From a virus, in IMG/VR virus record IMGVR_UViG_3300035698_026991, positions 1,202-65,201 of that record: a DNA stretch of 64,000 nt. The stretch is one strand, 5' to 3'. A model generated the notes under the pieces. It did no database searches and was not told where the DNA came from. It saw nothing but the letters and a program-made list of their open reading frames with translations. The translations under genes and the position numbers were made by a program. Position 1 is the stretch's first letter; each line of letters opens with the position of its first letter. This document shows, piece after piece, positions 23,446 through 39,408 of this stretch.

Positions 23446-23832
23446 ATGGAAAATATACCAGAGCCAATGGACAAAAATACAGAACCACAAGGAGTACAAG
23501 GAGTACAAACAACACAAGCAGAAAAAGACGAAAGAGAATACAAAATAAAGTGGAGAGAACTTAAGATAGCGAAAACTCGTTCTTTCGTTCTAAGAAAACA
23601 AATTACAGAAGCATATGAGATCCTAGAGAACATTAGATTCGATTACTTAGGAGATACAATGTTTCGTGATTACATTACAAAAGCAAAAAAAGAGTTAGAA
23701 GGAGCTATGACAGATTTCCTTTTATCAGATGGATATTGGGAAGGAAGAATTAAATTTCACAAGGAAATGTCATTCGAAGAATTTAAGAAAAGACGTGTAG
23801 AAGATATTGGACCAGAGTGTAACGTTAACTAA
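23446..23832 (+). CDS. hypothetical protein
   Basis: 128 aa. Precedes RmlB. Confidence 0.4.
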   Translation: MENIPEPMDKNTEPQGVQGVQTTQAEKDEREYKIKWRELKIAKTRSFVLRKQITEAYEILENIRFDYLGDTMFRDYITKAKKELEGAMTDFLLSDGYWEGRIKFHKEMSFEEFKKRRVEDIGPECNVN

Positions 23833-23869
23833 TTATCAATTTAGCCCTCAATTTTTAGCGAATAAAATT

Positions 23870-24811
23870 ATGAAAATGTTAATAACAGGTGGCGCGGGAT
23901 TTATAGGATCAAACTACATTCATTATGTGATGAAGAAGCATCCTGGTTATACAATTACAAATTTAGATTTATTAACCTATGCAGGTAATTTAAATAATCT
24001 AGTTGGTGTGGACCAGAGCGATGACTACGTTTTTATACAAGGGAATATCCTAGACGAATCATTAGTGAATAGATTAGTTAAAGAATCCGACATTGTTGTT
24101 AACTTTGCTGCAGAAAGTCATGTAGATAGATCAATAGAGAATCCAAACGATTTTACAATTACAAATACACTAGGAACTCAAGTATTATTGAATGCTTGTT
24201 TAAAATATAAAAAGAGATTCCATCAAATATCCACAGACGAGGTATTTGGTGATTTGCCGTTAATAGGGAAGGAGAAGTTCACTGAGAATACTTTGTACAA
24301 TCCTTCTAGCCCTTATTCAGCTTCCAAAGCTGCCGCAGATCATCTTGTACGAGCTTATCACAAAACCTATGGTCTTGATGTAACTATAACTAATTGTTCT
24401 AACAATTACGGAAGATTTCAACACGAAGAGAAGTTTCTACCTAAAATGATCATACAAGCTGTTAAAGGTGAGAAATTACCTATTTATGGTGAAGGAAAGA
24501 ACATGAGAGATTGGATACACGTAGAGGATCACTGTTCGGCCATAGATTTGGTCATTCAAGAAGGAAAAGTAGGAGAGACATACCTTGTAGGTGGTAATGC
24601 ATGCAAAAGCAATATAGATGTAGCAAACGAAATTTTAAAGGCTCTACATAGGGATAAATCCAGCCTCGAATTCGTCACAGACCGTCTTGGGCATGACCTT
24701 CGATACGAAGTAGATTCATCTAAGATAGAGAAAGAGCTCGGGTGGAAGAGAAAGTACAATTTTAAGGATGGATTAAAAGAAACAATTAATTGGTATACAC
24801 CAAGTTATTAA
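23870..24811 (+). CDS. rfbB: dTDP-glucose 4,6-dehydratase
   Basis: MKMLITGGAGFIGSNY Rossmann start, YSASKAAADHLVRAYHKTYGL (YxxxK catalytic motif), NCSNNYG. Start moved to the in-frame ATG at 23870 to avoid overlap. Confidence 0.85.
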   Translation: MKMLITGGAGFIGSNYIHYVMKKHPGYTITNLDLLTYAGNLNNLVGVDQSDDYVFIQGNILDESLVNRLVKESDIVVNFAAESHVDRSIENPNDFTITNTLGTQVLLNACLKYKKRFHQISTDEVFGDLPLIGKEKFTENTLYNPSSPYSASKAAADHLVRAYHKTYGLDVTITNCSNNYGRFQHEEKFLPKMIIQAVKGEKLPIYGEGKNMRDWIHVEDHCSAIDLVIQEGKVGETYLVGGNACKSNIDVANEILKALHRDKSSLEFVTDRLGHDLRYEVDSSKIEKELGWKRKYNFKDGLKETINWYTPSY

Positions 24812-25101: not shown

Positions 25102-25121
25102 TCACTAAAATCACGAGTCAA
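25102..25121. repeat. left arm of perfect 20-bp inverted repeat TCACTAAAATCACGAGTCAA
   Basis: Exact reverse complement present at 25475..25494. Arms sit 1 nt after the upstream stop and immediately after the stop of gene 25141..25461. Confidence 0.9.
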
Positions 25122-25140
25122 GTTAAGTCAAAAAAAAGTC

Positions 25141-25461
25141 ATGTCAAAAAGAGTACAAGAGAAGTTTATAGATCCAACAGCGCCTGTGGTAAAGAAGGGA
25201 GTGGAACATCATGCTGGATGGGTTTATACACAAAGAACATTAGATATTATCAACGGGAATCAGATGGCCATTATAGAAGCCCTTGGATTACCAGATAAAC
25301 AGGAGAATGCGCTTAAGTCTCAAGTCAGACAAGCGCTATACAGACCACAGAGGTTAGCACACTTCCTAACTGCTCAAGAAATGGCAGATAGGAGCGATGA
25401 GGAAGCAGAAACATTAAAGGATTTGCCTTTAGATATTAATACCCTAAGAAACGTAAGGTAG
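25141..25461 (+). CDS. hypothetical protein (gene bracketed by 20-bp inverted repeats)
   Basis: 106-aa ORF. No recognisable domain. Confidence 0.4.
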   Translation: MSKRVQEKFIDPTAPVVKKGVEHHAGWVYTQRTLDIINGNQMAIIEALGLPDKQENALKSQVRQALYRPQRLAHFLTAQEMADRSDEEAETLKDLPLDINTLRNVR

Positions 25462-25474
25462 ATTATTAAAATTA

Positions 25475-25494
25475 TTGACTCGTGATTTTAGTGA
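25475..25494. repeat. right arm of perfect 20-bp inverted repeat TTGACTCGTGATTTTAGTGA
   Basis: Reverse complement of 25102..25121. Confidence 0.9.
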
Positions 25495-26694
25495 ATTACA
25501 TCCAGAACAGGTGGGGCGTCAGCCCCCTCACCGCCAGCCTAGGCAGAAGCGAGAGCGAGGTAAAGCCATACTGAATTTTGATGGTTTTAATATGCATTCT
25601 CGTGATAACTTCATAAAAGCGGTATACCTGTTCCGGATATAGTTCATTAAGTTTTATATTATTGGAGGGTGATAGCAAGTTCGTTCACAGTATTGCTTGA
25701 GCCTAAGGTGTGAATGGAGGGGTAAAACTCTCCAATAGTATAAAATAAATAATATGAAAAAAATTGATTTCAACAAAACGTGTTGTTTCCAATGCGAAAA
25801 AATTTGTGATTCGAAGTTAGATCTTTTAAGCATCAAATTATATGGTATATGCAAAGGATGCATAAAAAAAGGTGGCAAACAAGAAAAACACCTAATGCAA
25901 ACTTACATAAACAGTTAATACCACAAAACGAATAACAACAGGCATATAACAAAGGGTACCTAACTAAAGGTACCCTTTTCATTATTTATTTTTTAGAATT
26001 TTTCACCTTCCCCATTACGCATAACGAGAAACGTACCCTACACCCCCCACCCTATCCCTCTAACCTTCTCTTACGAGTTTTAAGCTATTAACAACACATT
26101 ATACCTATATACGCTTTAAACCTCTTAGGGGTTGAGGAATTAACTGTAAACAGCATTGGGGAGTCTGGTAGTTAGTAGTGAACTGCGCGTAGTTCGTAAT
26201 GTATGGAATTGGAAAAGTGAGTCAGAAATGCAGATGGGTACGTTACCCTTATAGTTACTTGTAATATTGGGACCCCTAACAGACAACCCCCCAACCCCCA
26301 ATTACGAACTCCACACTGCACACAGCACAAAGCGCACATCGTCTATTATGCACACTCTTCGCTCTTCGCTGTGCATAGCTTTTCTCTCATAGTTAAAACG
26401 GTATTCCCTACACACAGACACTTCGTGTCTGTTACAGTGGTTTCTTACAGTTCTTCTCTGCGTTGTTCGTTGTTGGTTGTGTACATCGTATGGTGTAAAA
26501 CTACTTCTTTGAGTATCTAAGGTCGTAACACTAATAGATAGTGTGGATACTCTTATTAGATATTAGTAAGTAGGTTTAGCACCGAACTCCGAGTTTTCCG
26601 TATAAACACTCGTCACGCACATCGCACCACGCACACCTCACAGGTATGCAGCATACATCTATGCAAGCGATAGCATTACGAGATTAAACCTAAC

Positions 26695-27000
26695 TACTAA
26701 GCACCACCGTAGCGAGTTAGTCACAGGAAGTTTATATATATCTAACTAAGACATCTAGATCTACATCTAGACCAGTTAGAGTATGTAAGGCGACTGGAAA
26801 CAAACCCAGTTAGTAAGGACCGTAGATCCTTATATCCTGTTACTAACTCGTTACACACCACCGTAGCGAATTAGCTACAGAAGAATATTTGATATTGCTA
26901 GAATGTCATTATTAGTGAAGAGGACTCTTCACAGCAAGCCAGCTAGAGTCTTGCCTTCTGTTGCTAATTCGTTACACACCACAATAACGAGCTACACGCA
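26695..27000. repeat. degenerate direct repeats (~40 bp, three copies) inside ORF-free CA-rich region
   Basis: CTACTAAGCACCACCGTAGCGAGTTAGTCACAG (26695), TAACTCGTTACACACCACCGTAGCGAATTAGCTACAG (26843) and TAATTCGTTACACACCACAATAACGAGCTACACGCAG (26964). Also the perfect 8-bp IR GTGAAGAG/CTCTTCAC at 26917. Confidence 0.7.
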
Positions 27001-27192
27001 GCGGATAAACATATCCGTCGTGCATCCTGTTCTTTGACATCTTATATTGATAATATCATATTATTTTTACATAGATTACGCATTAGACCTCTAGTCTTCT
27101 GCGTCTAGCTCGTTATAACCTCTATAGCATAACCACTTAGAGTTATGTTATATCACTATTGCTATAACTATAGCATTAACTATATAATCATT

Positions 27193-27627
27193 ATGGAATT
27201 AAAAAACCTTTTAGACTTCTCTATTACTAGAATCATCGCTTTCAATTCAGATAAGACTAGCGCTGAAGTTAAGCTTGGAGAATGTTTCAAATCTTTATCA
27301 GGATCTAACCCTACTATTAAACCAGATTGCAATGTCAAAGATGCGACATTCAGTAATCCTTCTGAATGGGGAGTTAGGGAGTTCACAGTTACTGATAAAG
27401 CAACTGAAGAAGTAATACAAATTACTTCCTATTACCAAAACATCAATGGTCCTGCATCTCGTTTCTTCGTGACCACTGAAGTTGCTAATAAGTTCTTAGC
27501 TAAGGCTAGCAACCTAAAGGAAAGTAGAATCTCAATAGGAGACTTTCAACCTACTGATGAGCAAAGAGCTTACCTAGAGAAGAAACACGATGGTAAGACA
27601 CCAGGTTACGCACCATTGGTAGCATAA
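27193..27627 (+). CDS. hypothetical protein
   Basis: Listed ORF 27145..27627. Probable start at MELKNLLDF (27193) after an AT-rich leader. Confidence 0.4.
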   Translation: MELKNLLDFSITRIIAFNSDKTSAEVKLGECFKSLSGSNPTIKPDCNVKDATFSNPSEWGVREFTVTDKATEEVIQITSYYQNINGPASRFFVTTEVANKFLAKASNLKESRISIGDFQPTDEQRAYLEKKHDGKTPGYAPLVA

Positions 27628-27645
27628 CTAAATAACTATAACTTA

Positions 27646-27701
27646 AGCACTATAACTATTACTATTGCATTTGCAATCTTAGTAGCTATAGTGCTTTTTT
27701 T
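27646..27701 (+). terminator. rho-independent terminator (long imperfect hairpin + T7)
   Basis: AGCACTATA...ATTGCATTTGCAAT...TATAGTGCT followed by TTTTTTT. Confidence 0.55.
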
Positions 27702-27913
27702 ATACACTACGCACGGTTCACTTAAGCGATAGCTACAACTCATAGCTCTCTCTCTACCATGAGCCGAACATATAGCTAATTCTATCAGGGATAATATATA
27801 AAGATAACTTAAGGATATCTAACTAATAAATTTAAGAATACAAACATCAGTACACAATTTAGGCTTTTCAATTTATTTAACTATCTATATTATCCCTACA
27901 GAGTTAGTTATAC

Positions 27914-27932
27914 ATTATTAATTACCTTAACC
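27914..27932 (+). promoter_or_regulatory. conserved 19-nt upstream motif ATTATTAATTACCTTAACC (copy 1)
   Basis: Motif 13 nt upstream of the ATG of the small membrane-protein gene 27945. Confidence 0.6.
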
Positions 27933-27944
27933 ATCAACACAACT

Positions 27945-28088
27945 ATGTTCTTAACTATAATAGCCACACTTCTCGCTGTAGCACTAATGATAGCAGTAGT
28001 AGTGACAACAGACTTCAAGTCTTTCTTCTCAGTTTGTATAACACTACTAGTAGTCGCTTTACTAAGTGTTCTAATAGCAACAATCTAA
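27945..28088 (+). CDS. small hydrophobic membrane peptide (47 aa)
   Basis: MFLTIIATLLAVALMIAVVVTT.. found by manual translation. Preceded by the conserved motif. Confidence 0.4.
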   Translation: MFLTIIATLLAVALMIAVVVTTDFKSFFSVCITLLVVALLSVLIATI

Positions 28089-28093
28089 GAGAC

Positions 28094-28112
28094 ATTATTA
28101 ATTTCCTTAATC
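28094..28112 (+). promoter_or_regulatory. conserved upstream motif ATTATTAATTTCCTTAATC (copy 2)
   Basis: 13 nt upstream of ATG 28125. Confidence 0.55.
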
Positions 28113-28124
28113 ACCTTAAACAAT

Positions 28125-28358
28125 ATGTTTAATATAAAAGATAGAAAAACTCTAAACACTATATCTAAAGTAGTTGGAAAAACATTTAAAGAAATAAGAG
28201 AAATACTCAAACTAGTAAAAAAAGCACTCAAACTAGTGAAAGGAGTAGATACATCACAGGAAAAAACGACAAAAAGACTAAACAACATTGAAAAGAAATA
28301 TTACACAAAGAAAGAAGTTGATACAATAATAAAAAAACTTAAAACCCAAAAGAAATAA
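28125..28358 (+). CDS. small Lys-rich coiled-coil protein
   Basis: 77-aa ORF following motif copy 2. Confidence 0.45.
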   Translation: MFNIKDRKTLNTISKVVGKTFKEIREILKLVKKALKLVKGVDTSQEKTTKRLNNIEKKYYTKKEVDTIIKKLKTQKK

Positions 28359-28369
28359 AGCAAAACCAC

Positions 28370-28388
28370 ATTATTAATTACCTTAACC
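28370..28388 (+). promoter_or_regulatory. conserved upstream motif ATTATTAATTACCTTAACC (copy 3)
   Basis: 14 nt upstream of ATG 28402. Confidence 0.6.
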
Positions 28389-28401
28389 CACCGCAAACAA
28401 T

Positions 28402-28584
28402 ATGAATCACTACCCACCAATTTCATTACTAGTAGCAATCATCCCATCAGCACCTATATTCAGCTTTGGATACCAAGCAATGGGCATAGAACCCACAGGG
28501 TTACTAGTTTCAATATCATTCATCTTATTACTAATTCAAGTCGCAGGACTAGTTACATACATACTAACTGAAGTATGTAAGTAA
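28402..28584 (+). CDS. small membrane protein (60 aa)
   Basis: Two hydrophobic segments. Confidence 0.45.
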   Translation: MNHYPPISLLVAIIPSAPIFSFGYQAMGIEPTGLLVSISFILLLIQVAGLVTYILTEVCK

Positions 28585-28586
28585 GT

Positions 28587-28605
28587 ATTACTAATTCCCT
28601 TAACC
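28587..28605 (+). promoter_or_regulatory. conserved upstream motif ATTACTAATTCCCTTAACC (copy 4)
   Basis: 10 nt upstream of ATG 28615. Confidence 0.55.
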
Positions 28606-28614
28606 AATCCTATT

Positions 28615-28764
28615 ATGCACTATCTTATTCACTTAACTTTATTCTTCGTAGGACTTACTTTAGTCCTACAAGATATACCTACACACCCATTCTTATTCCT
28701 TACAGGTTTCATAGTCTTAGGGATATGGTATGGGAATGTATTCCTATCACCTAATGATTATTAA
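28615..28764 (+). CDS. small membrane peptide (49 aa)
   Basis: MHYLIHLTLFFVGLTLVLQD.. by manual translation. Confidence 0.35.
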   Translation: MHYLIHLTLFFVGLTLVLQDIPTHPFLFLTGFIVLGIWYGNVFLSPNDY

Positions 28765-28775
28765 TCACCTTAATT
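28757..28775 (+). promoter_or_regulatory. conserved upstream motif ATTATTAATCACCTTAATT (copy 5)
   Basis: 12 nt upstream of ATG 28787. Confidence 0.5.
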
Positions 28776-28786
28776 AACTAAAACAA

Positions 28787-28957
28787 ATGAGATGCTTAAA
28801 ATGGTTACAACCACACATATGGGGTAAATGGAAAATGAAAGAAACAGGAAAGATAATAGTAAATGAAAAGAATAAAGGAAGCTATTGGATACAAGAAAGA
28901 GAATGCACATTATGTGGATACAAAGAATTCAAAGAGTCAAAAACAGAACAAATCTAA
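28787..28957 (+). CDS. small KW-rich peptide with C-terminal ECxLCG motif (56 aa)
   Basis: LQPHIWGKWKMKETG...ERECTLCGY. Paralogous to 34355..34522. Confidence 0.4.
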   Translation: MRCLKWLQPHIWGKWKMKETGKIIVNEKNKGSYWIQERECTLCGYKEFKESKTEQI

Positions 28958-28958
28958 T

Positions 28959-28976
28959 ATTATTAATTAACTTAAC
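28959..28976 (+). promoter_or_regulatory. conserved upstream motif ATTATTAATTAACTTAAC (copy 6)
   Basis: 5 nt upstream of ATG 28981. This supports 28981 as the true start of listed ORF 28885..29454. Confidence 0.5.
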
Positions 28977-28980
28977 TGCA

Positions 28981-29454
28981 ATGCACTCAAACATATTAAA
29001 TGCGTTTAATAAGCTAAATCAATCAGCTAGTTCAGTCAACACATCAACCATTACTGCACAAGAACAATATACTCAGTTATTTTGCAATAATGAAATCAAA
29101 AGTAAAGATGGGATGTTAACACAGGTACTTATACAAAAAGGCCTCAATATCAATGAAACAATGAAAGCATCTTCGTTAATAAAACTATTTATCTTTGATA
29201 AAAACATATCTTGGTTCAGAGGGAACAAGACACCAGCTCTTATGTGCAAAGATAATATAATTAAAGTAATACTCAAAAAAGAAAAGTTCACTGATGAAGA
29301 AATGACAAGAACATTAGAGCTTATTCAACTCACAGACCAAGACCCGAACCTTAGTTGGACAACAGATTCAAAACATCAAGTATATGAAGATGAAGACGAA
29401 GACGATGATGATGATGATGATGATGATGATACTTGGGACTATGATGAAGACTAA
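28981..29454 (+). CDS. triplicated-family protein, copy 1 (acidic poly-Asp C-terminus)
   Basis: Shares the FNK.N start, L.DKNISW and LIELTDKD..L.WE.D blocks with 29485..29961 and 29966..30409. Ends with a 13-residue poly-Asp run. Confidence 0.5.
   Translation: MHSNILNAFNKLNQSASSVNTSTITAQEQYTQLFCNNEIKSKDGMLTQVLIQKGLNINETMKASSLIKLFIFDKNISWFRGNKTPALMCKDNIIKVILKKEKFTDEEMTRTLELIQLTDQDPNLSWTTDSKHQVYEDEDEDDDDDDDDDDTWDYDED
29404..29439. repeat. (GAT)12 trinucleotide repeat encoding poly-Asp
   Basis: gatgatgatgat... read directly. Confidence 0.9.
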
Positions 29455-29455
29455 A

Positions 29456-29473
29456 ATTATTAATAACCTTAAC
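29456..29473 (+). promoter_or_regulatory. conserved upstream motif ATTATTAATAACCTTAAC (copy 7)
   Basis: 12 nt upstream of ATG 29485. Confidence 0.55.
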
Positions 29474-29484
29474 AATTAATCACT

Positions 29485-29961
29485 ATGTATAATAAACTAA
29501 TTAGCCAATTCAACAAAGTAAACAACACAACCAAAGCTCCTATAGTAGAACAACCAGCAGTATCAGCTTTCCCAGGATTAAAAACAATGTCAGATATATT
29601 CAATAAAGATAATATGATTAAGCAAATCCTTAGATACAAAAACCTACAAGAGAGAAGAGTAACGAAAGCACTCATGATCATAAAAGTTATCCTACTTGAT
29701 AAAGATATACCTTGGGAAAGAGATTCAGTAGGATTTGCTCTAACTAAAGATAAGATGCTACAGATGATACTAGTAGTAGCTGAGATGCCTACACAAAACA
29801 TCAAAAGAACTATTGGACTTATACAAGAAGCAAACGGAGACACTGAACTTGAATGGTTAGAAGATCGTACATCTAAAATATCAAAAAAACTAGAAGGATT
29901 AGACACAGCAAAGAAAATCGATATGCTTAAAGAGCTAAACGAGAATAATAAACTAGTATAG
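29485..29961 (+). CDS. triplicated-family protein, copy 2
   Basis: Paralog of the flanking genes (LLDKDIPWE, LIQEANGDTELEWLED). Confidence 0.5.
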   Translation: MYNKLISQFNKVNNTTKAPIVEQPAVSAFPGLKTMSDIFNKDNMIKQILRYKNLQERRVTKALMIIKVILLDKDIPWERDSVGFALTKDKMLQMILVVAEMPTQNIKRTIGLIQEANGDTELEWLEDRTSKISKKLEGLDTAKKIDMLKELNENNKLV

Positions 29962-29965
29962 TATT

Positions 29966-30409
29966 ATGAAAGCAAACTTAATAGCCCAGTTCAAAAAGCT
30001 AAAAGACAACGAACCTATAGAGCCCAAACAATTGTCAGATAGCCAAAGAACATACAACGAAATGAGACCTAAAGTGAATAGATACAAGGACATGATGATT
30101 CAAGAAATATTATTATCAAAAGGAATCACACACGAGAAATTAATGGTAGTAAAATCATTAGTTAAATTTGCCCTACTTGATAAAAATATAAGCTGGGAAA
30201 AAGAAACTGAAAACTCATTATTAACTAAAGAAAAAATGATCTCATTAATATTAATAAGAGAAAAAATAGACAACAATACAACAAAAGAAATTCTAAATCT
30301 TATAGAACTAACAGACAAAGACAACACACTTAAATGGGAACAAGACTTCGTATCTGGAATCTATGAAGATAAAGATAGCACTCAACTATGTGCAACCACT
30401 AGTACCTAA
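29966..30409 (+). CDS. triplicated-family protein, copy 3
   Basis: Paralog (LLDKNISWEKE, LIELTDKDNTLKWEQD). No separate motif copy, 5 nt after the previous stop. Confidence 0.5.
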   Translation: MKANLIAQFKKLKDNEPIEPKQLSDSQRTYNEMRPKVNRYKDMMIQEILLSKGITHEKLMVVKSLVKFALLDKNISWEKETENSLLTKEKMISLILIREKIDNNTTKEILNLIELTDKDNTLKWEQDFVSGIYEDKDSTQLCATTST

Positions 30410-30424
30410 TTATTAAAAGTTAAC
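30409..30424 (+). promoter_or_regulatory. conserved upstream motif variant ATTATTAAAAGTTAAC (copy 8)
   Basis: 10 nt upstream of ATG 30434. Confidence 0.45.
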
Positions 30425-30433
30425 AACATCTTT

Positions 30434-30709
30434 ATGGAATTAAAATACGTAATAACCGAACACAATGCATTTGCAATGTTCTCCAAAACAACCAACCACT
30501 CAGATATAGGTCGAGTCCTAGACGGGCAACCGGTAGGAGCTGGGTTCTGCACATTAACACAAGGACATAAACAAGGGTGCAGAGATAATGATTTTGAAGA
30601 TCAAGAAGTTGTAGATGTTCATTGCTATGGAGAAAGTGATTCTCTTGGTATAGCATCAAGAGATAAAGACGAAGAGATTATTAATAACAAGATTAACCCA
30701 GAAATATAA
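30434..30709 (+). CDS. hypothetical protein
   Basis: 91 aa. Confidence 0.4.
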   Translation: MELKYVITEHNAFAMFSKTTNHSDIGRVLDGQPVGAGFCTLTQGHKQGCRDNDFEDQEVVDVHCYGESDSLGIASRDKDEEIINNKINPEI

Positions 30710-30710
30710 T

Positions 30711-31001
30711 ATGTTTACAATAACACTATTACTTATCATAGGTACAATATTAGTTATCGGAGGAATATTCAGAAACGAAGCAGTATTTCAATATAGAAAA
30801 GAACTAATAAATAGGATAGCAGATAGATCAAAGAAAGAAGCCGATGAAGCATACGCAAAAGGAAGTATTGATTCAGAAGAATTAATGAAATTAAACAAAA
30901 GAAGATTTGCTCAATTTGATGCAGTATCATACAACGAAATGCTATTCCAATTTTGGAAACCAATAGATACATTCTATGATATAGAAGACATCCTTTCATA
31001 G
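30711..31001 (+). CDS. membrane-anchored hypothetical protein
   Basis: N-terminal TM helix (ITLLLIIGTILVIGGIF). Confidence 0.4.
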   Translation: MFTITLLLIIGTILVIGGIFRNEAVFQYRKELINRIADRSKKEADEAYAKGSIDSEELMKLNKRRFAQFDAVSYNEMLFQFWKPIDTFYDIEDILS

Positions 31002-31041
31002 AAGAAAAACAAGTCAATAAACAAAGGGAAACAAAAATAAG

Positions 31042-31062
31042 TTAATAATTAAGTCCACTTAA
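31042..31062 (+). promoter_or_regulatory. conserved upstream motif variant TTAATAATTAAGTCCACTTAA (copy 9)
   Basis: Upstream of ATG 31068. Confidence 0.35.
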
Positions 31063-31067
31063 ATAAT

Positions 31068-31493
31068 ATGTTAGTAACAAGAAAATTAATCGTAAACGAA
31101 GGAGGAATCCAAGAAGTAACTGAAGAAAAAGTAAACCAACCAACATCTGTACAAGCTAGAGGAGAAATAGAAATAAAAGTAGAAATGGGAGAAGACAACG
31201 ACGAATTGAATTTCTCAAAAGATGAAATGGTTCTACTTATTTTATCTTTACAAACCAAAGGAATTTTAGATCCAGAAACTACAAAAGAAATGATTAAAAA
31301 AGCAACCACAGATAATAGATTAGAATGGGAAGAAGAAGGAGGAAGAGAAGAAGAAGAAGAAAAAGAAGAAGAAGAAGAATGTAATTGTCCAGTATGTACA
31401 CTAAAAAAAGCATTAGAACAACAAGGACAAAACAAAAATGAACAAATAAATCCTATGAATAGATTTATGGAAAACTTTATTCAAAAACTTTAA
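31068..31493 (+). CDS. acidic protein with Glu-rich tract and CxxC motif
   Basis: 141 aa. EEEGGREEEEEKEEEEECNCPVC. Confidence 0.4.
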   Translation: MLVTRKLIVNEGGIQEVTEEKVNQPTSVQARGEIEIKVEMGEDNDELNFSKDEMVLLILSLQTKGILDPETTKEMIKKATTDNRLEWEEEGGREEEEEKEEEEECNCPVCTLKKALEQQGQNKNEQINPMNRFMENFIQKL

Positions 31494-31504
31494 TCTAAAA
31501 AAAC

Positions 31505-31645
31505 ATGAATCATAAAACAAAAGAAATCATATTGAATATATTCATTATGATCGTTGTGCTTGCTATCATCTTCGTAACTGTATTCTTTGCAACTGATGTT
31601 TCATTAAAGAACGAGATAAATAACAACTGTTTAATAACTAATTAA
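31505..31645 (+). CDS. small membrane peptide (46 aa)
   Basis: MNHKTKEIILNIFIMIVVLAIIFVTVFF.. by manual translation. Confidence 0.3.
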   Translation: MNHKTKEIILNIFIMIVVLAIIFVTVFFATDVSLKNEINNNCLITN

Positions 31646-31652
31646 TACACCA

Positions 31653-32165
31653 ATGAAACAATCAAATACACCAATGAAAACAGTAAAAATCCAATACATC
31701 CGAACCAAACTACAAGTAGAAACTGCAACGGATCTACTTAACAAAACAATAACAGCTAAAAGAAACGAGAAAGCAAAACTCTTGTTTCAAAAGGACTTAG
31801 ACAAAGCAAACCTAATCCTTAAGAAAAACAAAGCGAAAGTTGTTAAAGCTATCACTTTAGCAGAGAAACAAGAGAAAGAACTAGACCTAGAAATAAGAAA
31901 AGCTACACACGGAAAAATACAATTAGACGGTAGAAAGATAGACAAAGATGCATTGAAAACAATAGGACAATTAGGAATAAAGAATAGATACTATTCGACT
32001 ACAATCAAAGAAACAGAAAATACGAATATCGGTGTCTATGAAAACCTAATTAAGCTAGATAAAGAACAAGAAAAAATAGATGCATTCATATTAGAAATGA
32101 TCCTAGGGAAAGTAACAGCAACAGAATTGACAGCACTGATTAATAACATTAAAAAGATAAAATAG
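31653..32165 (+). CDS. hypothetical Lys-rich protein
   Basis: 170 aa. Confidence 0.4.
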   Translation: MKQSNTPMKTVKIQYIRTKLQVETATDLLNKTITAKRNEKAKLLFQKDLDKANLILKKNKAKVVKAITLAEKQEKELDLEIRKATHGKIQLDGRKIDKDALKTIGQLGIKNRYYSTTIKETENTNIGVYENLIKLDKEQEKIDAFILEMILGKVTATELTALINNIKKIK

Positions 32166-33497: not shown

Positions 33498-34316
33498 ATG
33501 AATAACGCAAAACTAGTCGTAGGAATGATAGTAACAGTAGTATTAATCTTATTAATACTAGCACTTAATCCATTTGTACAAATCGAATCAGGAGAAAGAG
33601 GAGTAGTAACAACTTGGGGTGAAGTCCAAGATGATATTATGCAAGAAGGGCTACACTTTAGAATGCCTATAGCACAAGAAATTCACAAAATGGACATCAA
33701 AATTAAGAAATTTGAAGTTGCAGAACTAGCTTATTCTAAAGATGCACAAATAGTAGAAGCTGCAGTTACTCTAAACTATGAGTTAACTCCATCATTTGTT
33801 AAACAAATCTTCACAGAAGTAAGGAAAGATTATGAAAGTATTATAATCACACCTGCCATTAAAGAAGCTATTAAATCAACAATAGCACAATATACAGCAC
33901 AAGGAATAATTGATAATAGACCTAAAGTAAGAATGGACATAAAAGAACTTCTTACAACACAACTAGCACTTGGAGGAATCACAGTTAAAGAAATCGCCAT
34001 CACAAACATTGACTTTGATGATGATTATGAACTAGCTGTTAAACAAAAACAAGTTGCTGAACAAGAAGCTCTTAAAGAAGTAAACATCACAAAATCAGAA
34101 GCAGAAAAGAAGAAACAACAAATCCTTATCGCTCAAGCTCTTGCTGAGAAAACAAGATTAGAAGCACAAGCTCTAGCATCACAACAAGGACAAAAAGTAA
34201 TTGACAAGATCTATGCAGAAGCAGCATTAAAAGCAGCTGAAAATTGGAATGGAGCATTACCAAACAACTTCGTTCCAGGATCCACATTACCAATAATGAA
34301 TATTAAAACACAGTAA
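33498..34316 (+). CDS. SPFH/band-7 (prohibitin/HflC-like) domain membrane protein
   Basis: N-terminal TM helix. GVVTTWGEVQDDIMQEGLHFRMP start of the SPFH domain. C-terminal Ala/Gln/Glu-rich coiled coil (AQALAEKTRLEAQALASQQ) as in HflK/C. Confidence 0.75.
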   Translation: MNNAKLVVGMIVTVVLILLILALNPFVQIESGERGVVTTWGEVQDDIMQEGLHFRMPIAQEIHKMDIKIKKFEVAELAYSKDAQIVEAAVTLNYELTPSFVKQIFTEVRKDYESIIITPAIKEAIKSTIAQYTAQGIIDNRPKVRMDIKELLTTQLALGGITVKEIAITNIDFDDDYELAVKQKQVAEQEALKEVNITKSEAEKKKQQILIAQALAEKTRLEAQALASQQGQKVIDKIYAEAALKAAENWNGALPNNFVPGSTLPIMNIKTQ

Positions 34317-34354
34317 GCACCTTACTGTGCTTATTATTATTAACTAATTTAATT

Positions 34355-34522
34355 ATGATTAAATGTAATAGTTTCCTATATCCACACGAATGGACTAAAT
34401 GGAAAGAAGTCAAAAGAGGACCTGTAGTAAATTCAGAAAAAACAGTCATAGCAAATTATATTGAAATGGAAAGAGAATGTGAACTTTGTGGACTGAAACA
34501 ACTGAAAGAAACAAGAGCTTAA
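34355..34522 (+). CDS. small KW-rich peptide with ECxLCG motif (55 aa)
   Basis: YPHEWTKWKEVKRGP...ERECELCGL. Paralog of 28787..28957. Confidence 0.35.
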   Translation: MIKCNSFLYPHEWTKWKEVKRGPVVNSEKTVIANYIEMERECELCGLKQLKETRA

Positions 34523-34539
34523 TCATTATATATATTATT

Positions 34540-35460
34540 ATGGAAAAAAACACAACAGATGTCTTAGAATATTTTAAGAAGAAAATAGATAGTGATCCAG
34601 AACTAAAAAAACTCTATGATAATGAAAAAGATATTATGCCTAAATACCAAAAAACAACACTAAAGACAATAGACTATCCAGATGCTCCATCAGGCAAGAT
34701 CAATATAAACAAATGGGTACCACCTTTCAAAAAAGTGAAGGGTGGTTACGGATTTGTAGGAGTAGTAGCTGAAGATTCAAAAACAGGACAACTACAATGT
34801 CATCATTGTGGTAAATGGTTTCAACAGTTACAAACTCATATGATTAAGCACGGTCTAAATGGAAAATCATACAGAAAGAAATATGGTCTACTCTCATCAA
34901 CTGCATTGAAATCAAAAAAATTAAGATTAATGCATTCAAAAGTTTGTAGAGCATCACAAGCAGCAGGGAAAATGAACTTAGGCCACAAAGGAGGATATGG
35001 ATTTAAGAAAGGAAATAAAGAAGCAGCGAATAGAAAAGGAACACTCACTAAAGAGGAAGCTAAAAATAGACATGGAGTATGTGATTTACAAATAATGTCA
35101 AAGATAATGGCATTGAGTAGAAAATTAGGTAAAACACCTTCACTCATTGATATAAAAAAAGAATATGGAGGAAGCATTATATCAATAATGCATTCAAGAT
35201 ACGGAAGTTACATCAAATATTGTAAAGATACACTCAAGCTAACACCTTGTATATCAGCACATAACCCAAAACTTAAGAACAAAAAAGAATGGAGAGAACA
35301 CTTAATAAAACTTGGTATAAAAATATCAAAAAAACAAAAAGGAAAGATATTAAGAATCTCTCACCTTCCAATGAAAGAATCCAGATACATATACAAATAT
35401 TTCAATGGAATTAAAAGTTATAGAAAAGCAGTCGAAAAACAATTAAAAATTAATAGCTAA
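34540..35460 (+). CDS. Lys-rich protein with Ros/MucR-type zinc-finger-like segment
   Basis: CHHCGKWFQQLQTHMIKHGLNGKSYRKKYGL resembles the MucR/Ros C-terminal motif (C.ECGK.FK.L..H...HG.T...YR..WGL). Start set at MEKNTTD. Confidence 0.4.
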   Translation: MEKNTTDVLEYFKKKIDSDPELKKLYDNEKDIMPKYQKTTLKTIDYPDAPSGKININKWVPPFKKVKGGYGFVGVVAEDSKTGQLQCHHCGKWFQQLQTHMIKHGLNGKSYRKKYGLLSSTALKSKKLRLMHSKVCRASQAAGKMNLGHKGGYGFKKGNKEAANRKGTLTKEEAKNRHGVCDLQIMSKIMALSRKLGKTPSLIDIKKEYGGSIISIMHSRYGSYIKYCKDTLKLTPCISAHNPKLKNKKEWREHLIKLGIKISKKQKGKILRISHLPMKESRYIYKYFNGIKSYRKAVEKQLKINS

Positions 35461-35466
35461 CACAAT

Positions 35467-35838
35467 ATGAAAAAAAACATAAAAGCTTTAGCAAAAGCTC
35501 TTAAAAGTATACCGACAGAAGAGGAAGAAGAAAAGAAAGCAAAACTAGTAACACTAAAAAAGTTAGCACAAGTAGGTAATATAGGAATTACTATAGGAGG
35601 CTTTAAAAAAGGAGTAGCGAAATGTGTTGATTACTCTGAAGTACAAAGTAACAAAAATTACATAAGCGACTATATTAAACAAGAAAGAGCTAACCAACAA
35701 TTAACTCAAGAAGAGTTGGGATATAAAGCTGACCTATCAAGAAGTACAATAAGTGCAGCTGAAAGAGGCTATGGAATCTCAAAACATACTATGTTTTGTA
35801 TTATTAACTCCTTAGGGAAACAACTAGTAATCCAATAA
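35467..35838 (+). CDS. XRE-family helix-turn-helix transcriptional regulator
   Basis: LTQEELGYKADLSRSTISAAERGYGISKHTMFCIINSLG fits the HTH_3 pattern. Confidence 0.55.
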   Translation: MKKNIKALAKALKSIPTEEEEEKKAKLVTLKKLAQVGNIGITIGGFKKGVAKCVDYSEVQSNKNYISDYIKQERANQQLTQEELGYKADLSRSTISAAERGYGISKHTMFCIINSLGKQLVIQ

Positions 35839-35844
35839 AATCAT

Positions 35845-36129
35845 ATGAAATATACAACACCAACAAATGATAATATCATTAAATTCATAATGAAATATGG
35901 TTTAAGTTTAGTTATTTTTGTCATTTGTTTCTTGTTGGTAGTAGGATTTGTAAAAAAAAATATAAAATTCGCTACCTACTTAGCAGCACCTAAGTGTAGT
36001 ATACAAACACTAGAAGATAGCCAAACAATTTTATATAATCAAAAAGATTTCGAAATTGAAACATTTGATTATAGAAAATATGAATACTCTGGTGATATTG
36101 TATCCATTTATTTAACAGAGATAAAATAA
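35845..36129 (+). CDS. membrane-anchored hypothetical protein
   Basis: TM helix LSLVIFVICFLLVVGFV. Confidence 0.4.
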   Translation: MKYTTPTNDNIIKFIMKYGLSLVIFVICFLLVVGFVKKNIKFATYLAAPKCSIQTLEDSQTILYNQKDFEIETFDYRKYEYSGDIVSIYLTEIK

Positions 36130-36177
36130 CTAAATAAACCCAATTATTATTAAAAAAATAGAACTAATTAAAAACAT

Positions 36178-36597
36178 ATGAAAAGTATAAGAGAAGCAGC
36201 CTTAAGCAAAGAGGAACCAAAGACACCAGCATATTCTTCATCATATCCTAAATACTCAAAACCATCAGATAGCATATATGATAATTATGGATGTGATCGT
36301 TTTGGAGAAGGAGATGATATCGACTCAATGTTTCCAAGATCAAACTACTCACCACCAGACCCAAACCTTGTAATAATTACCTTTAAACTTCAATACACAG
36401 AAATCGGCCCAGAAGCTGATCCTGATAATTCTGCGTTTAACGAAGGAGTTGCTGAAACAAAAGCAACACAACTAGCATACGATAGAACAGAGAAGTTATT
36501 AGGTAAAAAATTCGATTCAAAATATTCTGTATGTTTTAAATCAACAGACAACTATGATGAATACGAAATAGAAGTAGAACTAACACCAAACTATTAA
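36178..36597 (+). CDS. hypothetical protein
   Basis: 139 aa. Immediately upstream of the MoxR/vWA pair. Confidence 0.4.
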   Translation: MKSIREAALSKEEPKTPAYSSSYPKYSKPSDSIYDNYGCDRFGEGDDIDSMFPRSNYSPPDPNLVIITFKLQYTEIGPEADPDNSAFNEGVAETKATQLAYDRTEKLLGKKFDSKYSVCFKSTDNYDEYEIEVELTPNY

Positions 36598-36625
36598 TAA
36601 ATAAATAATAAAAACAAAACTTATT

Positions 36626-37894
36626 ATGATTATGCAACCAAAGACAATCAATTATTCAAAAATAGAAGTTCCTATCAACGACGGATCAAGCCAATTCGTC
36701 CCTAAGGTGGCAGCAAAGTTCATAGACCATGGATCTATCCTAAAGACGCTAGCAATCTCTGTAAGGGACAATTTGCCCATCCTATTGATGGGTGAGTCAG
36801 GAACTGGAAAGACTTCTGCCATAAGATATATGGCTAATCAAACAAAAAACGGATTAAGAAGAGTAAACCTTAACGGAGGAACAACAGCTGATGAATTAGT
36901 AGGAAGACTTCTAATCAATGAAAAAGGAACTTATTGGGTTGACGGAATTCTAACAGAAGCAATGAGAAATGGGGAATGGATTGTATTAGATGAAATTAAT
37001 GCCGCATTACCTGAAGTTCTATTTGTTCTTCAATCAGTCCTAGATGATGACGGTTATCTTGTTCTAACAGAAAAAGACGATAAAGAAATCATACATAAGC
37101 ATAAAGACTTCCGTCTATTTGCTACTTGTAACCCACCTGAATATGCTGGAACCAAAGAATTGAACAAAGCTTTACTATCAAGATTTGCTGTTTGTATTAA
37201 TGCAGAATTTCCACCTGAAAGAAAAGAATTTGAGATAATTGAACACCACCTAGGAAACGCTATTGCATCATCAGAAATGGCAATCAAAATGGTAGGATTA
37301 GCAAATGAAACTAGGAAAGCCAAGGAACTAGGAAAATCAGATTACGCAATTAATACCAGAGACGTACTAAACACCCTTAAGTTAGTCGAATTCGTAGATC
37401 CATTAGAAGCTTTAGGATTAGCTTTCGCTAATAAATTAGATCTAGCAGACAACAAAGCATTAAAGATAATGGCAAAACTACATTTACCAACTAAAAAGAA
37501 AGCACTATCTGTTAGAAAACAAATTAAGAAAGCAATAGATCTAAACATTGGAAAAACTTATCTGTTAGACGGAGATGTTCATAATGCATATTTTGGGTTA
37601 ACTGACGATGAAAAGATGTTCAAATCTTTAATCAGAAATGATTTAGGATTTATCATTGGAAACACAGTCAGAGAAAATGGAATCAAAGGAGACGAATTTG
37701 TGATTGAAGCAACTTACTACGAAGATGAAGATAGTGGAGCAAGCTCAAAAGAACTTTCATCAAAAGGAGAAAAAATAGCAAGTGCAATCAATATTGTTGA
37801 CGGACCTAACAAAGGGAAAAGAGGAATCGTTATACATCACGAAGACCTAGACAAAACACTAGATATCATAAAACTTATTTACGAAATCAATTAA
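36626..37894 (+). CDS. MoxR-like AAA+ ATPase (AAA_5 type)
   Basis: Walker A LLMGESGTGKTSAI, Walker B WIVLDEINAA, sensor-1 RLFATCNP. 422 aa with a C-terminal extension. Confidence 0.75.
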   Translation: MIMQPKTINYSKIEVPINDGSSQFVPKVAAKFIDHGSILKTLAISVRDNLPILLMGESGTGKTSAIRYMANQTKNGLRRVNLNGGTTADELVGRLLINEKGTYWVDGILTEAMRNGEWIVLDEINAALPEVLFVLQSVLDDDGYLVLTEKDDKEIIHKHKDFRLFATCNPPEYAGTKELNKALLSRFAVCINAEFPPERKEFEIIEHHLGNAIASSEMAIKMVGLANETRKAKELGKSDYAINTRDVLNTLKLVEFVDPLEALGLAFANKLDLADNKALKIMAKLHLPTKKKALSVRKQIKKAIDLNIGKTYLLDGDVHNAYFGLTDDEKMFKSLIRNDLGFIIGNTVRENGIKGDEFVIEATYYEDEDSGASSKELSSKGEKIASAINIVDGPNKGKRGIVIHHEDLDKTLDIIKLIYEIN

Positions 37895-37917
37895 TAACCT
37901 AAGATATATTATGCATT

Positions 37918-39408
37918 ATGAAACTAATCGAATTCCAAAAAGTGGGAGAGATGCTCGCTAGAGAGCATAAAATAAGAATCACAGAAGGAAAAGGTTGGGC
38001 AGCAAACATAAAAAACAGAGCAGTATTCTACAAGAAAGATGATATCTATAATCTACCAGAAGACCATATTCTTGGTCTTCTGCTCCACGAGATTGCTCAC
38101 ATCCACTACACACAAGATGTTGCTATGCCCAAAAAGAACGAGGAACTATCAGGAATAACCCTAAATATGTTAGAAGACATATCTGTCGAAAACATAATTG
38201 GTAACGACTATCCAAACGCAGCTGAAATTCTAGAATCAACAAAAGTAGAAGTTCTAGATACATTGATAAAAATGTTACCATCAATGAATAACATATCAGT
38301 ATATGAAAAAGCTTTACTGTATGCTGCAACAAGATTCGAAGGTAGAGGTTATGCCTTTAGCATTACAAAATATGAAAAACTAGGAGAAAAGATTTCAAAA
38401 ATAATGCTAAGAAAGAAAAATGAAATACTTAGAAGAAACGAAACAAAAGACTTAATGCCAATAGTAAAAGAAATTGTTGATCTAATGGTAAAAGAAGAAG
38501 GCGAACCAACAGACGAAGAAAAAGAAAGAATGCAACAAAGTATTTCAAGAGAAGGAAATGCTAATAGTCAACAACAAGGAGGAGAAACACAAGAAGAAAA
38601 AATTGGTAAATTAAAAGCTGGAACAGGTTGGGAAAAAGGACCTGAAATAGATAGACATTTAACTTTTGTTGATCAAATAGCTGACCAAGCTACAAAAATA
38701 GGAAAAGAACTAAGAACAGTTCTTAAAAGAAACAATGCTATGGAATATGGGGGAAGATACCGATCAGGAAAACTCTTAGCAAAAAGATTTGTAAGAGTTA
38801 GAGCTTTAAACGATCGAAACCCATTCACCAGGAGAATTGTTAAAAGTAATCAAAGTTATGCTTTCGCTTTAGCGTCAGATATATCAGGATCAATGTTTAA
38901 TGGAGGAGAAAATAATTATGGAAGTTATGCTTTAAGTTCATTACACATGGTAGGAGAAGCATTAAGATATGCATCAATACCACGATCAATGACTATCTTT
39001 GGAGAATATGCTAACACAGTTGCCCCAATGGGAAAAAGTAAAATAAACTGGGATCAATTAGCAAATGTAATAGATGTTAGAAAAGCTAATCAAGGAGGAA
39101 CAAGAATAGATAAAGCAATAGAAGCTTGTACAAAAGAATTAGGTAAAGTAGTAGCAGAAAGAAAAATAATGATTGTTCTAACAGATGGATCAAGTGATCT
39201 AAGTGATATGAGGAAAGCTCATAAGAAAGCAACAAAAGCAGGCATTGAATGTTTAGGAATTACTATCGGAGATGGTTATAATAGTAGTTATATGGACGAT
39301 ACATTCACTCCTAAGAAAAACACAAAAATTGAAGATACGGGAGATACAGAACTAATAGGAACAGAATTTATTAAAATCTTAAAGACATCCGTAGCAATGT
39401 CTAAATAA
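37918..39408 (+). CDS. von Willebrand factor A (vWA) domain protein, MoxR partner
   Basis: MIDAS DxSxS motif AFALASDISGSM and downstream VLTDGSSD. N-terminal HEIAHIHY could be a metal-binding motif. Confidence 0.7.
   Translation: MKLIEFQKVGEMLAREHKIRITEGKGWAANIKNRAVFYKKDDIYNLPEDHILGLLLHEIAHIHYTQDVAMPKKNEELSGITLNMLEDISVENIIGNDYPNAAEILESTKVEVLDTLIKMLPSMNNISVYEKALLYAATRFEGRGYAFSITKYEKLGEKISKIMLRKKNEILRRNETKDLMPIVKEIVDLMVKEEGEPTDEEKERMQQSISREGNANSQQQGGETQEEKIGKLKAGTGWEKGPEIDRHLTFVDQIADQATKIGKELRTVLKRNNAMEYGGRYRSGKLLAKRFVRVRALNDRNPFTRRIVKSNQSYAFALASDISGSMFNGGENNYGSYALSSLHMVGEALRYASIPRSMTIFGEYANTVAPMGKSKINWDQLANVIDVRKANQGGTRIDKAIEACTKELGKVVAERKIMIVLTDGSSDLSDMRKAHKKATKAGIECLGITIGDGYNSSYMDDTFTPKKNTKIEDTGDTELIGTEFIKILKTSVAMSK

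What the first reader, a model, noticed from the sequence alone, without database searches (positions are those of the whole stretch)
28981..30409. Tandem triplication of a novel gene family
Three consecutive genes of 157, 158 and 147 aa share conserved blocks (N-terminal FNK.N.., LLDKNISWE, LIELTDKD..L.WE.D). They diverge elsewhere, and copy 1 ends in a poly-Asp run encoded by (GAT)12. Tandem diversifying paralogs in an early-gene island suggest an arms-race function, such as binding different host targets or defence proteins.
Basis: seen in the sequence. Interest (0 to 1): 0.6.

Follow-up and report, generated by a model that had tools for sequence, protein, structure and literature searches.

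The report
Orphan phage gene family, tandemly triplicated
Three neighbouring small genes of an uncultured phage are real, fast-diverging copies of one previously unseen protein family built from a repeated two-helix unit. It is a well-documented example of an ordinary phage pattern, and its function is not known.

Summary
Genes c1 (28981-29454), c2 (29485-29961) and c3 (29966-30409) are paralogs: 30-32% identity, BLASTP E 1e-15 to 3e-20.

- Each protein is itself an internal duplication of a ~45-aa two-helix unit, KDxMIxxIL...LIx...DxxLxWExD (hhalign E 8e-8).
- A fourth gene (31068-31493) carries one such unit followed by a poly-Glu run.
- c1 has (GAT)9, not (GAT)12.

The family is nearly unique. 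An exhaustive profile search of 1.84 billion proteins gave one hit, a 115-aa two-unit protein. It lies in the only known relative of this phage, at the syntenic position and as a single copy.

The genes sit in a hypervariable island. It is 3.9 kb here and 1.4 kb in the relative, with no DNA similarity, while the flanks are about 71% identical. A 20-nt motif (ATTATTAATTACCTTAACCA) precedes seven consecutive small genes, including c1 and c2.

There is no Pfam, PHROG, NCBIfam, PADLOC, PDB or BFVD match, and conserved positions look structural. The best reading is a set of non-enzymatic binding proteins in a plastic accessory module, possibly for host takeover or anti-defence. That role, and early expression, are inferred and not shown. 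Positive selection cannot be tested because synonymous sites are saturated.

The family is new, but the kind of feature is ordinary.

The parts
28981..29454 (+). c1, 157 aa, net charge -17, pI 4.3. N-terminal helix ILNAFNKL; unit A at aa 42-86 (nt 29104-29238); unit B at aa 90-134 (nt 29248-29382); acidic tail EDEDED(D)10TWDYDED.
29404..29430 (+). (GAT)9 microsatellite inside the c1 tail. With the preceding GAC it encodes 10 Asp. It stays in frame and could change length by slippage.
29485..29961 (+). c2, 158 aa, net charge +5, pI 9.35. N-terminal LISQFNKV; unit A at aa 41-85 (nt 29605-29739); unit B at aa 88-132 (nt 29746-29880); Lys-rich tail.
29966..30409 (+). c3, 147 aa, net charge 0, pI 6.6. 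N-terminal LIAQFKKL; unit A at aa 41-85 (nt 30086-30220); unit B at aa 88-132 (nt 30227-30361). It starts 4 nt after the c2 stop and has no upstream motif, so it is probably co-transcribed with c2. AF2 model: pLDDT 76, six helices, and each unit is a helix-turn-helix hairpin.
31068..31493 (+). c4, 141 aa, net charge -16. A divergent single-unit member: unit at aa 51-95 (nt 31218-31352), then a poly-Glu run, CxCPxC, and the C-terminal helix FMENFIQKL. Its ortholog is the 113-aa protein of L001.
   Evidence: The unit HMM hits c4 at E 3e-4 in the six-frame window, next best 0.085. c4 against the L001 113-aa protein gives E 4e-11. AF2 predicts a helix hairpin at aa 51-81 with pLDDT about 70.
27914..29475 (+). 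Seven copies of the 20-nt motif ATTATTAATTACCTTAACCA, starting at 27914, 28094, 28370, 28587, 28757, 28959 and 29456. Each nearly fills a 22-43-nt spacer. In six copies the 18-nt core ends 10-14 nt before the ATG; for c1 the gap is 4 nt. The last two precede c1 and c2.
   Evidence: D1; 12 matches against 3.3 expected; 0 of 100 shuffles reach 12
27761..31686 (+). Hypervariable island: 3.9 kb here against 1.4 kb in the relative (L001 9958-11374). The two have no blastn similarity, while the flanks are about 71% identical. It holds five tiny ORFs (27945, 28125, 28402, 28615, 28787), c1-c3, a 91-aa ORF (30434), a 96-aa ORF (30711) and c4.
27193..27704 (+). Left conserved flank: a 144-aa gene (67% aa identity to its L001 counterpart) followed by a 33-nt inverted repeat and a T-run at 27637-27704, which looks like a terminator. 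This sets the island off as a separate transcription stretch.
   Evidence: I1

Best explanation
c1, c2 and c3, with the single-unit c4, form a lineage-restricted family of small, soluble, all-helical proteins that are probably not enzymes.

Shown:
- The building block is a ~45-aa helix-turn-helix hairpin followed by an extended D-x-x-L-x-W-E-x-D segment.
- An old internal duplication made a two-unit protein. Gene duplication then gave three tandem copies here, against one in the only known relative.
- The locus lies in a hypervariable island between conserved flanks.
- The copies differ strongly in charge and in their C-terminal tails.

Inferred:
- The two hairpins pack into one compact helical domain, held together by the invariant Leu, Ile and Trp. 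This serves as a scaffold.
- The fast-changing surface, the copy-specific tails (poly-Asp in c1, Lys-rich in c2, short in c3, poly-Glu in c4) and a shared LIxxF(N/K)K(L/V) helix mediate binding to other macromolecules.
- The genes are expressed from a phage-specific 20-nt promoter-like or regulatory motif, as part of a plastic accessory module.
- The copies have diverged to bind different host or defence targets.
For: - Paralogy.
- Internal duplication: hhalign of the A-unit profile against the B-unit profile gives probability 94.5%, E 8e-8. A and B units cluster by type across both phages. A DNA trace links c1 unit B to c2 unit A (D9).
- Fourth member.
- Rarity: one hit (P0001, E 1.5e-11) among 1.84e9 representatives.
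- P0001 lies in a syntenic relative as a single copy.
- Hypervariable island between flanks about 71% identical.
- dN is 3-6 times that of flanking orthologs.
- The only invariant residues over ten units are K1, L9, D32 and W37, with I26 nearly invariant. There is no conserved His, Cys, Ser or acid pair that would suggest catalysis.
- AF2 model of c3: pLDDT above 90 over both hairpins, pTM 0.66, all helical.
- Net charges are -17, +5, 0 and -16.
- The strict pattern [LI][IL]xxF[NK]K[LV] occurs only at the N-termini of c1-c3 in the six-frame window. It occurs only once in six-frame L001, at the C-terminus of the single-unit protein.
- The motif precedes seven consecutive genes and also P0001 in L001.
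Against: - There is no expression data and no partner data.
- The host is unknown.
- The alignment behind the model has only three sequences.
- The N-terminal helix has pLDDT of only about 55.
- The 20-nt motif could be something other than a promoter.
- With one relative genome, the direction of copy-number change is unresolved, and positive selection is untestable.
Confidence: 0.5

Rival explanations
1. DNA-mimic anti-restriction proteins of the Ocr, ArdA or Arn type. The acidic copies would imitate DNA and soak up restriction enzymes or other DNA-binding defence proteins.
For: c1 (net -17, pI 4.3) and c4 (net -16) are strongly acidic and carry poly-Asp or poly-Glu runs. The L001 ortholog of c4 also has a long Asp/Glu/Asn run. 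The genes lie in an accessory region.
Against: c2 is basic (pI 9.35) and c3 is neutral (pI 6.6), and P0001 has no tail at all. The negative charge is therefore not a family property. It sits in low-complexity tails and not on the folded core. There is no sequence or fold similarity to any solved DNA mimic.
Confidence: 0.12
2. Small DNA- or RNA-binding regulators. Each helix-turn-helix hairpin would contact nucleic acid, and the paralogs would control different phage or host promoters.
Confidence: 0.13
3. Assembly or scaffolding chaperones, or other virion-associated proteins.
For: c2 gives a weak PHROG hit to a head scaffolding protein (phrog_2932, E 0.0099). The proteins are helical and charge-rich.
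Against: The hit is weak and is seen in only one copy. The genes lie about 8 kb from the structural module (portal, terminase and capsid at 8-15 kb), on the other strand and in a different transcription unit. Structural genes of the two phages are about 80% identical in DNA, whereas this locus is hypervariable.
Confidence: 0.04
4. Chance ORFs or an assembly artefact, not real genes.
For: The DNA is AT-rich and easily gives long ORFs. An antisense 145-aa ORF overlaps c2.
Against: The similarity is at protein level (E down to 3e-20) while the DNA is only about 50% identical. A homolog with the same two-unit layout is found on four contigs from independent JGI, ENA and Logan data sets. The reading frames are packed and co-oriented with short spacers.
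Confidence: 0.01

Closest known systems
Hyperplastic regions and PeSL cassettes of T4-like phages (Arbiol et al. 2010, PMC2839356; Comeau et al. 2014, PMC4122927)
   Same: Blocks of small, mostly orphan genes sit between conserved core genes. They differ by insertions and deletions between related phages. A short conserved regulatory motif repeats in front of the small genes and could act as a recombination point.
   Different: PeSLs are composite: a stem-loop terminator plus a sigma-70 early promoter. Here the 22-43-nt spacers hold only a 20-nt motif, with no stem-loop and no sigma-70 consensus. The phage is unrelated to T4; its terminase is at most 27% identical to that of any cultured phage. 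A role for the motif in recombination is not shown.
Host-takeover and anti-defence early proteins of lytic phages (for example T7 Ocr and Gp2, T4 AsiA and Arn, SPO1 gp44). Analogy from general knowledge.
   Same: Small, soluble, often acidic proteins that are not enzymes. They are encoded in a module of short co-oriented genes and are poorly conserved between phages.
   Different: There is no sequence or fold similarity to any of them. Timing of expression and targets are unknown. This family is a repeat protein that has expanded in tandem.
P0001, the 115-aa protein on JGI contig Ga0105050_10001592 (L001 10001-10348)
   Same: The only homolog found. It has the same N-terminal helix and the same A and B units, the same genomic position between the 144/145-aa gene and the 89/96-aa gene, and the same upstream motif.
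   Different: It is a single copy, lacks the helix at aa 25-36, has no C-terminal tail, and is about 27-31% identical to c1-c3.

Membership tests
New two-unit family (c1, c2, c3, P0001) | Significant full-length similarity between members | tested here: met
   BLASTP E 4e-16, 3e-20 and 1e-15. Profile against P0001: E 1.5e-11 in a library of 1.84e9 proteins.
New two-unit family (c1, c2, c3, P0001) | Two tandem ~45-aa units (K-D/E-x-M/I-h-x-x-h-L ... L-I ... D-x-x-L-x-W) | tested here: met
   hhalign of A against B units: 94.5%, E 8e-8. The HMM finds two units in each of c1-c3 (E 1e-20 to 1e-22), though these six hits are circular because the HMM was built from those same six units. The independent test is P0001, where both units are found (E 4e-8 and 7e-6).
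New family, single-unit branch (c4, L001 113-aa protein) | One unit recognisable by a profile built from the two-unit proteins | tested here: inconclusive
   c4 matches at E 3e-4, ungapped, against a next best of 0.085. Its ortholog in L001 is not found directly at E up to 1 and is linked only through c4 (E 4e-11). AF2 shows the helix hairpin at pLDDT of only about 70.
PeSL regulatory cassettes (T4-like phages) | Conserved motif repeated before small genes of a hypervariable region | tested here: met
   Seven copies at 27914-29475. The island is variable relative to L001.
PeSL regulatory cassettes (T4-like phages) | Composite structure: stem-loop terminator followed by a sigma-70 early promoter | tested here: not met
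   The spacers are 22-43 nt. No inverted repeat accompanies the motif. The sigma-70 and terminator scan shows no enrichment, and none of its hits is centred on the motif.
DNA-mimic anti-restriction proteins (Ocr, ArdA, Arn) | Strong negative charge as a property of the folded protein in all members | tested here: not met
   Net charges are c1 -17, c2 +5, c3 0 and P0001 -5. The acidic residues of c1 and c4 are in low-complexity tails.
DNA-mimic anti-restriction proteins (Ocr, ArdA, Arn) | Sequence or fold similarity to a solved member | tested here: not met
Pfam PF17634 GP67 (phage G1 gp67) | Score above the Pfam gathering threshold | tested here: not met
   12.1 bits against a cut-off of 27, E 0.27, and confined to the acidic tail of c1.
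Helix-turn-helix DNA-binding domains | Match to any HTH profile | tested here: not met
   No HTH family at E up to 1 in Pfam or NCBIfam. By contrast, the neighbouring gene at 35467-35838 matches HTH_3 at 4e-8.
Known anti-phage defence or candidate defence proteins (PADLOC) | Match to any PADLOC model | tested here: not met
   Zero families at E up to 1 for c1-c4 and P0001.

The most novel reading that the evidence does not exclude
The ~45-aa unit is a new protein-binding fold, and the shared LIxxF(N/K)K(L/V) helix is a common docking peptide. That helix is N-terminal in the two-unit proteins and C-terminal, after an acidic linker, in the single-unit ones. The family would then be a modular set of adaptors that bring different tails to one host hub. 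It would have expanded by recombination between copies of the 20-nt motif, in a cassette system analogous to but distinct from PeSLs, under pressure from host defences.
Probability: 0.2. Interest if true: 0.55.

Novelty: new member of a known kind. Interest (0 to 1): 0.3.

Why it matters
If these proteins prove to be host-takeover or anti-defence factors, they would add a new fold and a clean natural experiment to the catalogue of phage counter-defence tools. One copy in one phage can be compared with three diverged copies, differing in charge and tails, in its sister. The 20-nt motif in front of seven consecutive genes would give a handle on transcription or cassette exchange in an uncultured phage lineage. 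As it stands, the finding is a well-characterised orphan family in a plastic region. That is common in phage genomes, and nothing here changes how such regions are understood.

Tried and rejected
Searches that gave no useful match:
- Pfam, PHROGs, NCBIfam and PADLOC scans of all four proteins and P0001 gave only noise, E at or above 0.009.
- tblastn of c3 and megablast of the locus against INPHARED phages: no match.
- Word-indexed search of 5.8e9 proteins with the three-gene alignment and with the ten-unit alignment: nothing.
- IMG/VR scans with A2 and A3: nothing.
- JGI metagenome scan: only the contig already known.
- GTDB genome scan: nothing.
- PDB sequence profile: only E 0.36.
- The AlphaFold-database libraries were not available.
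- Exact-sequence look-ups of c1-c4: not on record.

Analyses that could not answer the question:
- Pairwise dN/dS is uninformative because pS is about 0.6.
- Ordering the duplications from unit identities gave conflicting signals: LpA is nearest c1A, while LpB is nearest c2B.
- A search for a two-barrel RNA polymerase motif (DxDGD) in the 1100-aa orphan protein, as a possible reader of the 20-nt motif, found nothing.
- Rfam on the locus and on the whole window found only tRNA-Thr.
- The host could not be identified. Terminase, capsid and primase-helicase are at most 32% identical to those of cultured phages from many phyla.

Full report
**Observation**

The + strand of 28981-30409 carries three back-to-back ORFs: c1 (28981-29454, 157 aa), c2 (29485-29961, 158 aa) and c3 (29966-30409, 147 aa). 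Pairwise BLASTP shows end-to-end similarity of 30-32% identity, with E-values of 4e-16, 3e-20 and 1e-15. The DNA keeps only a 41-nt trace of the paralogy, spaced 501 and 481 nt apart (D4). The nucleotide sequences are about 50% identical overall, so the constraint is on the protein.

One detail is wrong. The Asp run of c1 is 10 residues, encoded by GAC plus (GAT)9 at 29404-29430, not (GAT)12.

Each protein contains two tandem ~45-aa units in perfect register. They are K-D/E-x-M/I-h-x-x-h-L, about 12 variable residues, then L-I-K/Q, then D-x-x-L-x-W-E-x-D.
- A profile of the three A units matches a profile of the three B units with 94.5% probability and E 8e-8.
- c1 unit B and c2 unit A still share a 38-nt stretch that is 74% identical (D9).
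- An HMM of the six units, run over the six-frame translation of the whole window, recovers the six units, as it must since it was built from them. It adds one more site, aa 51-95 of the 141-aa ORF at 31068-31493 (c4), at E 3e-4. The next best match is at 0.085.
- In c4 the unit is followed by a poly-Glu run, a CxCPxC motif and a C-terminal helix.

The locus therefore holds seven copies of the unit within 2.5 kb.

**Structure**

AlphaFold2 on c3 used only the three paralogs as alignment. It gives pLDDT 76 and pTM 0.66, with pLDDT above 90 over both units. The model has six helices, and each unit is a helix-turn-helix hairpin (aa 41-51 with 56-71, and 88-98 with 103-118) followed by the extended D..L.W segment.

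A model of c4 is poor overall (pLDDT 52). It still predicts the same hairpin at aa 51-81 with pLDDT of about 70.

Across ten aligned units the invariant residues are K1, L9, D32 and W37, and I26 is nearly invariant. This is a structural pattern of core and capping residues, not a catalytic one.

**How rare the family is**

- Pfam, PHROGs, NCBIfam and PADLOC give only noise.
- The following give nothing: the INPHARED phage records, the word-indexed 5.8-billion-protein collection (two queries), IMG/VR (two queries), GTDB genomes and PDB sequences.
- The exhaustive hmmsearch of 1.84 billion representative proteins returned exactly one protein, P0001 (115 aa, E 1.5e-11).
- P0001 has the same N-terminal helix and the same A and B units, and no tail.

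**The relative**

P0001 is encoded on four contigs from JGI, ENA and Logan data sets. The longest is Ga0105050_10001592, 33.9 kb (L001). That contig is syntenic with the window. It has the same 1100-aa orphan protein, HU-like protein, 144/145-aa protein (66-67% identity), Band_7, Ros/MucR, MoxR ATPase and VWA proteins.

DNA identity is about 80% over the structural genes and about 71% on either side of the locus. Between L001 9958-11374 (1.4 kb) and window 27761-31686 (3.9 kb) there is no blastn similarity at all. Within this island:
- The relative has one two-unit gene where the window has three. The unit HMM finds no other copy on L001-L005.
- The relative has a 113-aa ortholog of c4 (E 4e-11 over the unit), which also carries a long acidic run.
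- The window additionally has five tiny ORFs (three of them hydrophobic) and a 91-aa ORF that the relative lacks.

A and B units cluster by type across both phages, and the c4-type unit is nearest the B type. The internal duplication is therefore older than both the gene duplications and the split of the two phages.

It cannot be decided whether the triplication happened in this lineage or the relative lost copies. LpA is closest to c1A, at 33%, while LpB is closest to c2B, at 44%.

**Rate of change**

Nei-Gojobori estimates give dN of 0.68-0.78 among c1, c2, c3 and P0001. Three flanking ortholog pairs give dN of 0.13-0.33. pS is about 0.6 everywhere, so synonymous sites are saturated.

The copies differ sharply in charge: c1 net -17 (pI 4.3), c2 +5 (pI 9.35), c3 0 (pI 6.6) and c4 -16. 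They also differ in their C-terminal tails.

**A shared short helix**

The strict pattern [LI][IL]xxF[NK]K[LV] was derived from the N-termini of c1-c3.
- In the six-frame translation of the window (55,185 aa) it occurs three times, all at those N-termini.
- In the six-frame translation of L001 (13,633 aa) it occurs once, as the last residues (LIKLFNKL) of the single-unit 113-aa protein.
- c4 ends in a looser version, FMENFIQKL.

This suggests a common short helix placed at opposite ends in the two architectures. Its role is unknown.

**Upstream motif**

A 20-nt motif, ATTATTAATTACCTTAACCA, occurs seven times at 27914-29475, always on the + strand (D1). Each copy nearly fills a 22-43-nt spacer. 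In six copies the 18-nt core ends 10-14 nt before the ATG; for c1 the gap is 4 nt. A relaxed search finds 12 matches in the window against 3.3 expected, and none of 100 shuffles reaches 12.

The motif precedes the five tiny ORFs, c1 and c2. c3 starts 4 nt after the c2 stop and has none. Degenerate forms precede the next genes. One copy precedes P0001 in the relative.

The motif has no accompanying stem-loop and does not fit the sigma-70 consensus. None of these genes has an obvious Shine-Dalgarno sequence. I read it as a phage-specific promoter or other expression signal, which could also serve as a short recombination target. Neither role is shown.

**Genome context**

The window is part of a large uncultured phage.
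- A - strand structural module holds capsid, portal and terminase genes.
- It is followed by a tRNA-Thr, a GDP-mannose dehydratase and a 1.7-kb ORF-free stretch.
- A + strand module runs from about 27.1 to 41.3 kb and begins with the 144-aa gene, its terminator-like hairpin and then the island.
- Beyond that are GroEL, primase-helicase, a helicase and RecA.
- The best matches to cultured phages are at most 32% identical.
- The host is unknown.

'Early' expression is an inference from position and from the motif, nothing more.

**Interpretation**

The evidence fits small, non-enzymatic binding proteins on a conserved helical scaffold, with variable surfaces and tails. They sit in a plastic accessory region and have expanded to three copies in one of two sister phages. 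A host-takeover or anti-defence role is the most likely kind of function by analogy with other phages, but nothing here tests it.
- A DNA-mimic role could apply to c1 and c4, not to the family as a whole, because c2 is basic and c3 neutral.
- A nucleic-acid-binding regulator role is not excluded, but no HTH profile or fold match supports it.
- A structural role is unlikely from position and variability.
- Chance ORFs are excluded.

**Verdict**

The family is new in sequence and has no recognisable fold relatives. Orphan paralogs in a hypervariable phage region are, however, a familiar kind of feature. Interest is modest.

Noticed in passing
window 27914-29475 (seven sites); L001 9973-9990: The 20-nt motif ATTATTAATTACCTTAACCA sits before seven consecutive small genes and nearly fills each 22-43-nt spacer. 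It has no stem-loop and no sigma-70 match. One copy is conserved before the homolog in the sister phage. It may be a phage-specific promoter, an expression signal or a recombination site.
   Followed up: partly
window 25460-27140; L001 8459-9159: A 1.7-kb stretch with no credible ORF has higher GC (up to 0.38) than its surroundings. It lies just upstream of the + strand module. Positions 25967-26633 are 67% identical to the sister phage. There is no Rfam match. It could be an origin, a genome end or a large non-coding RNA.
   Followed up: partly
window 43176-43363 (- orientation) and L001 7662-7848: A 190-nt segment is 79% identical between the two phages but lies in a different place and orientation. 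Here it is at the far end of the + module. In the relative it is inside the ORF-free stretch. It may be a mobile or rearranged non-coding element.
   Followed up: no
window ~25110-25140 and ~25470-25490; L001 ~6890-6920: The motif CACGAGTCAAGTTAAGT lies just before the gene at 25141-25461. Its reverse complement (TTGACTCGTGATTTT) lies just after that gene. The same motif precedes a gene in the sister phage.
   Followed up: no
window 27637-27704: A 33-nt inverted repeat followed by a T-run lies after the conserved 144-aa gene (27193-27627), and the relative has a similar arrangement. It looks like a strong terminator isolating a single-gene unit. That gene has no known family.
   Followed up: partly
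c1-c3 N-termini; c4 C-terminus (31464-31490); L001 11052-11075: The short helix LIxxF(N/K)K(L/V) is found only at the N-termini of the two-unit proteins and at the C-terminus of the single-unit protein of the sister phage. There are no other hits in either six-frame translation.
   Followed up: partly
window 27945-28957: Five tiny ORFs of 47-77 aa, each behind its own motif copy, are absent from the sister phage. Three (27945, 28402, 28615) are strongly hydrophobic, and one (28787) has a CxxC pair.
   Followed up: no
window 23807-24811, 43753-44538, 45462-46151, 48759-50381, 33498-39408: Auxiliary genes include GDP-mannose 4,6-dehydratase, an RmlD-like reductase, a sugar nucleotidyltransferase and a full-length GroEL. 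There is also a Band_7, Ros/MucR, HTH, MoxR ATPase and VWA block. The sugar-nucleotide genes suggest cell-surface or DNA sugar modification.
   Followed up: no
window 18133-21438 (-): A 1100-aa protein next to the structural module has no Pfam or PHROG match. It is about 80% identical in DNA to its counterpart in the sister phage, and it has no DxDGD polymerase motif.
   Followed up: partly
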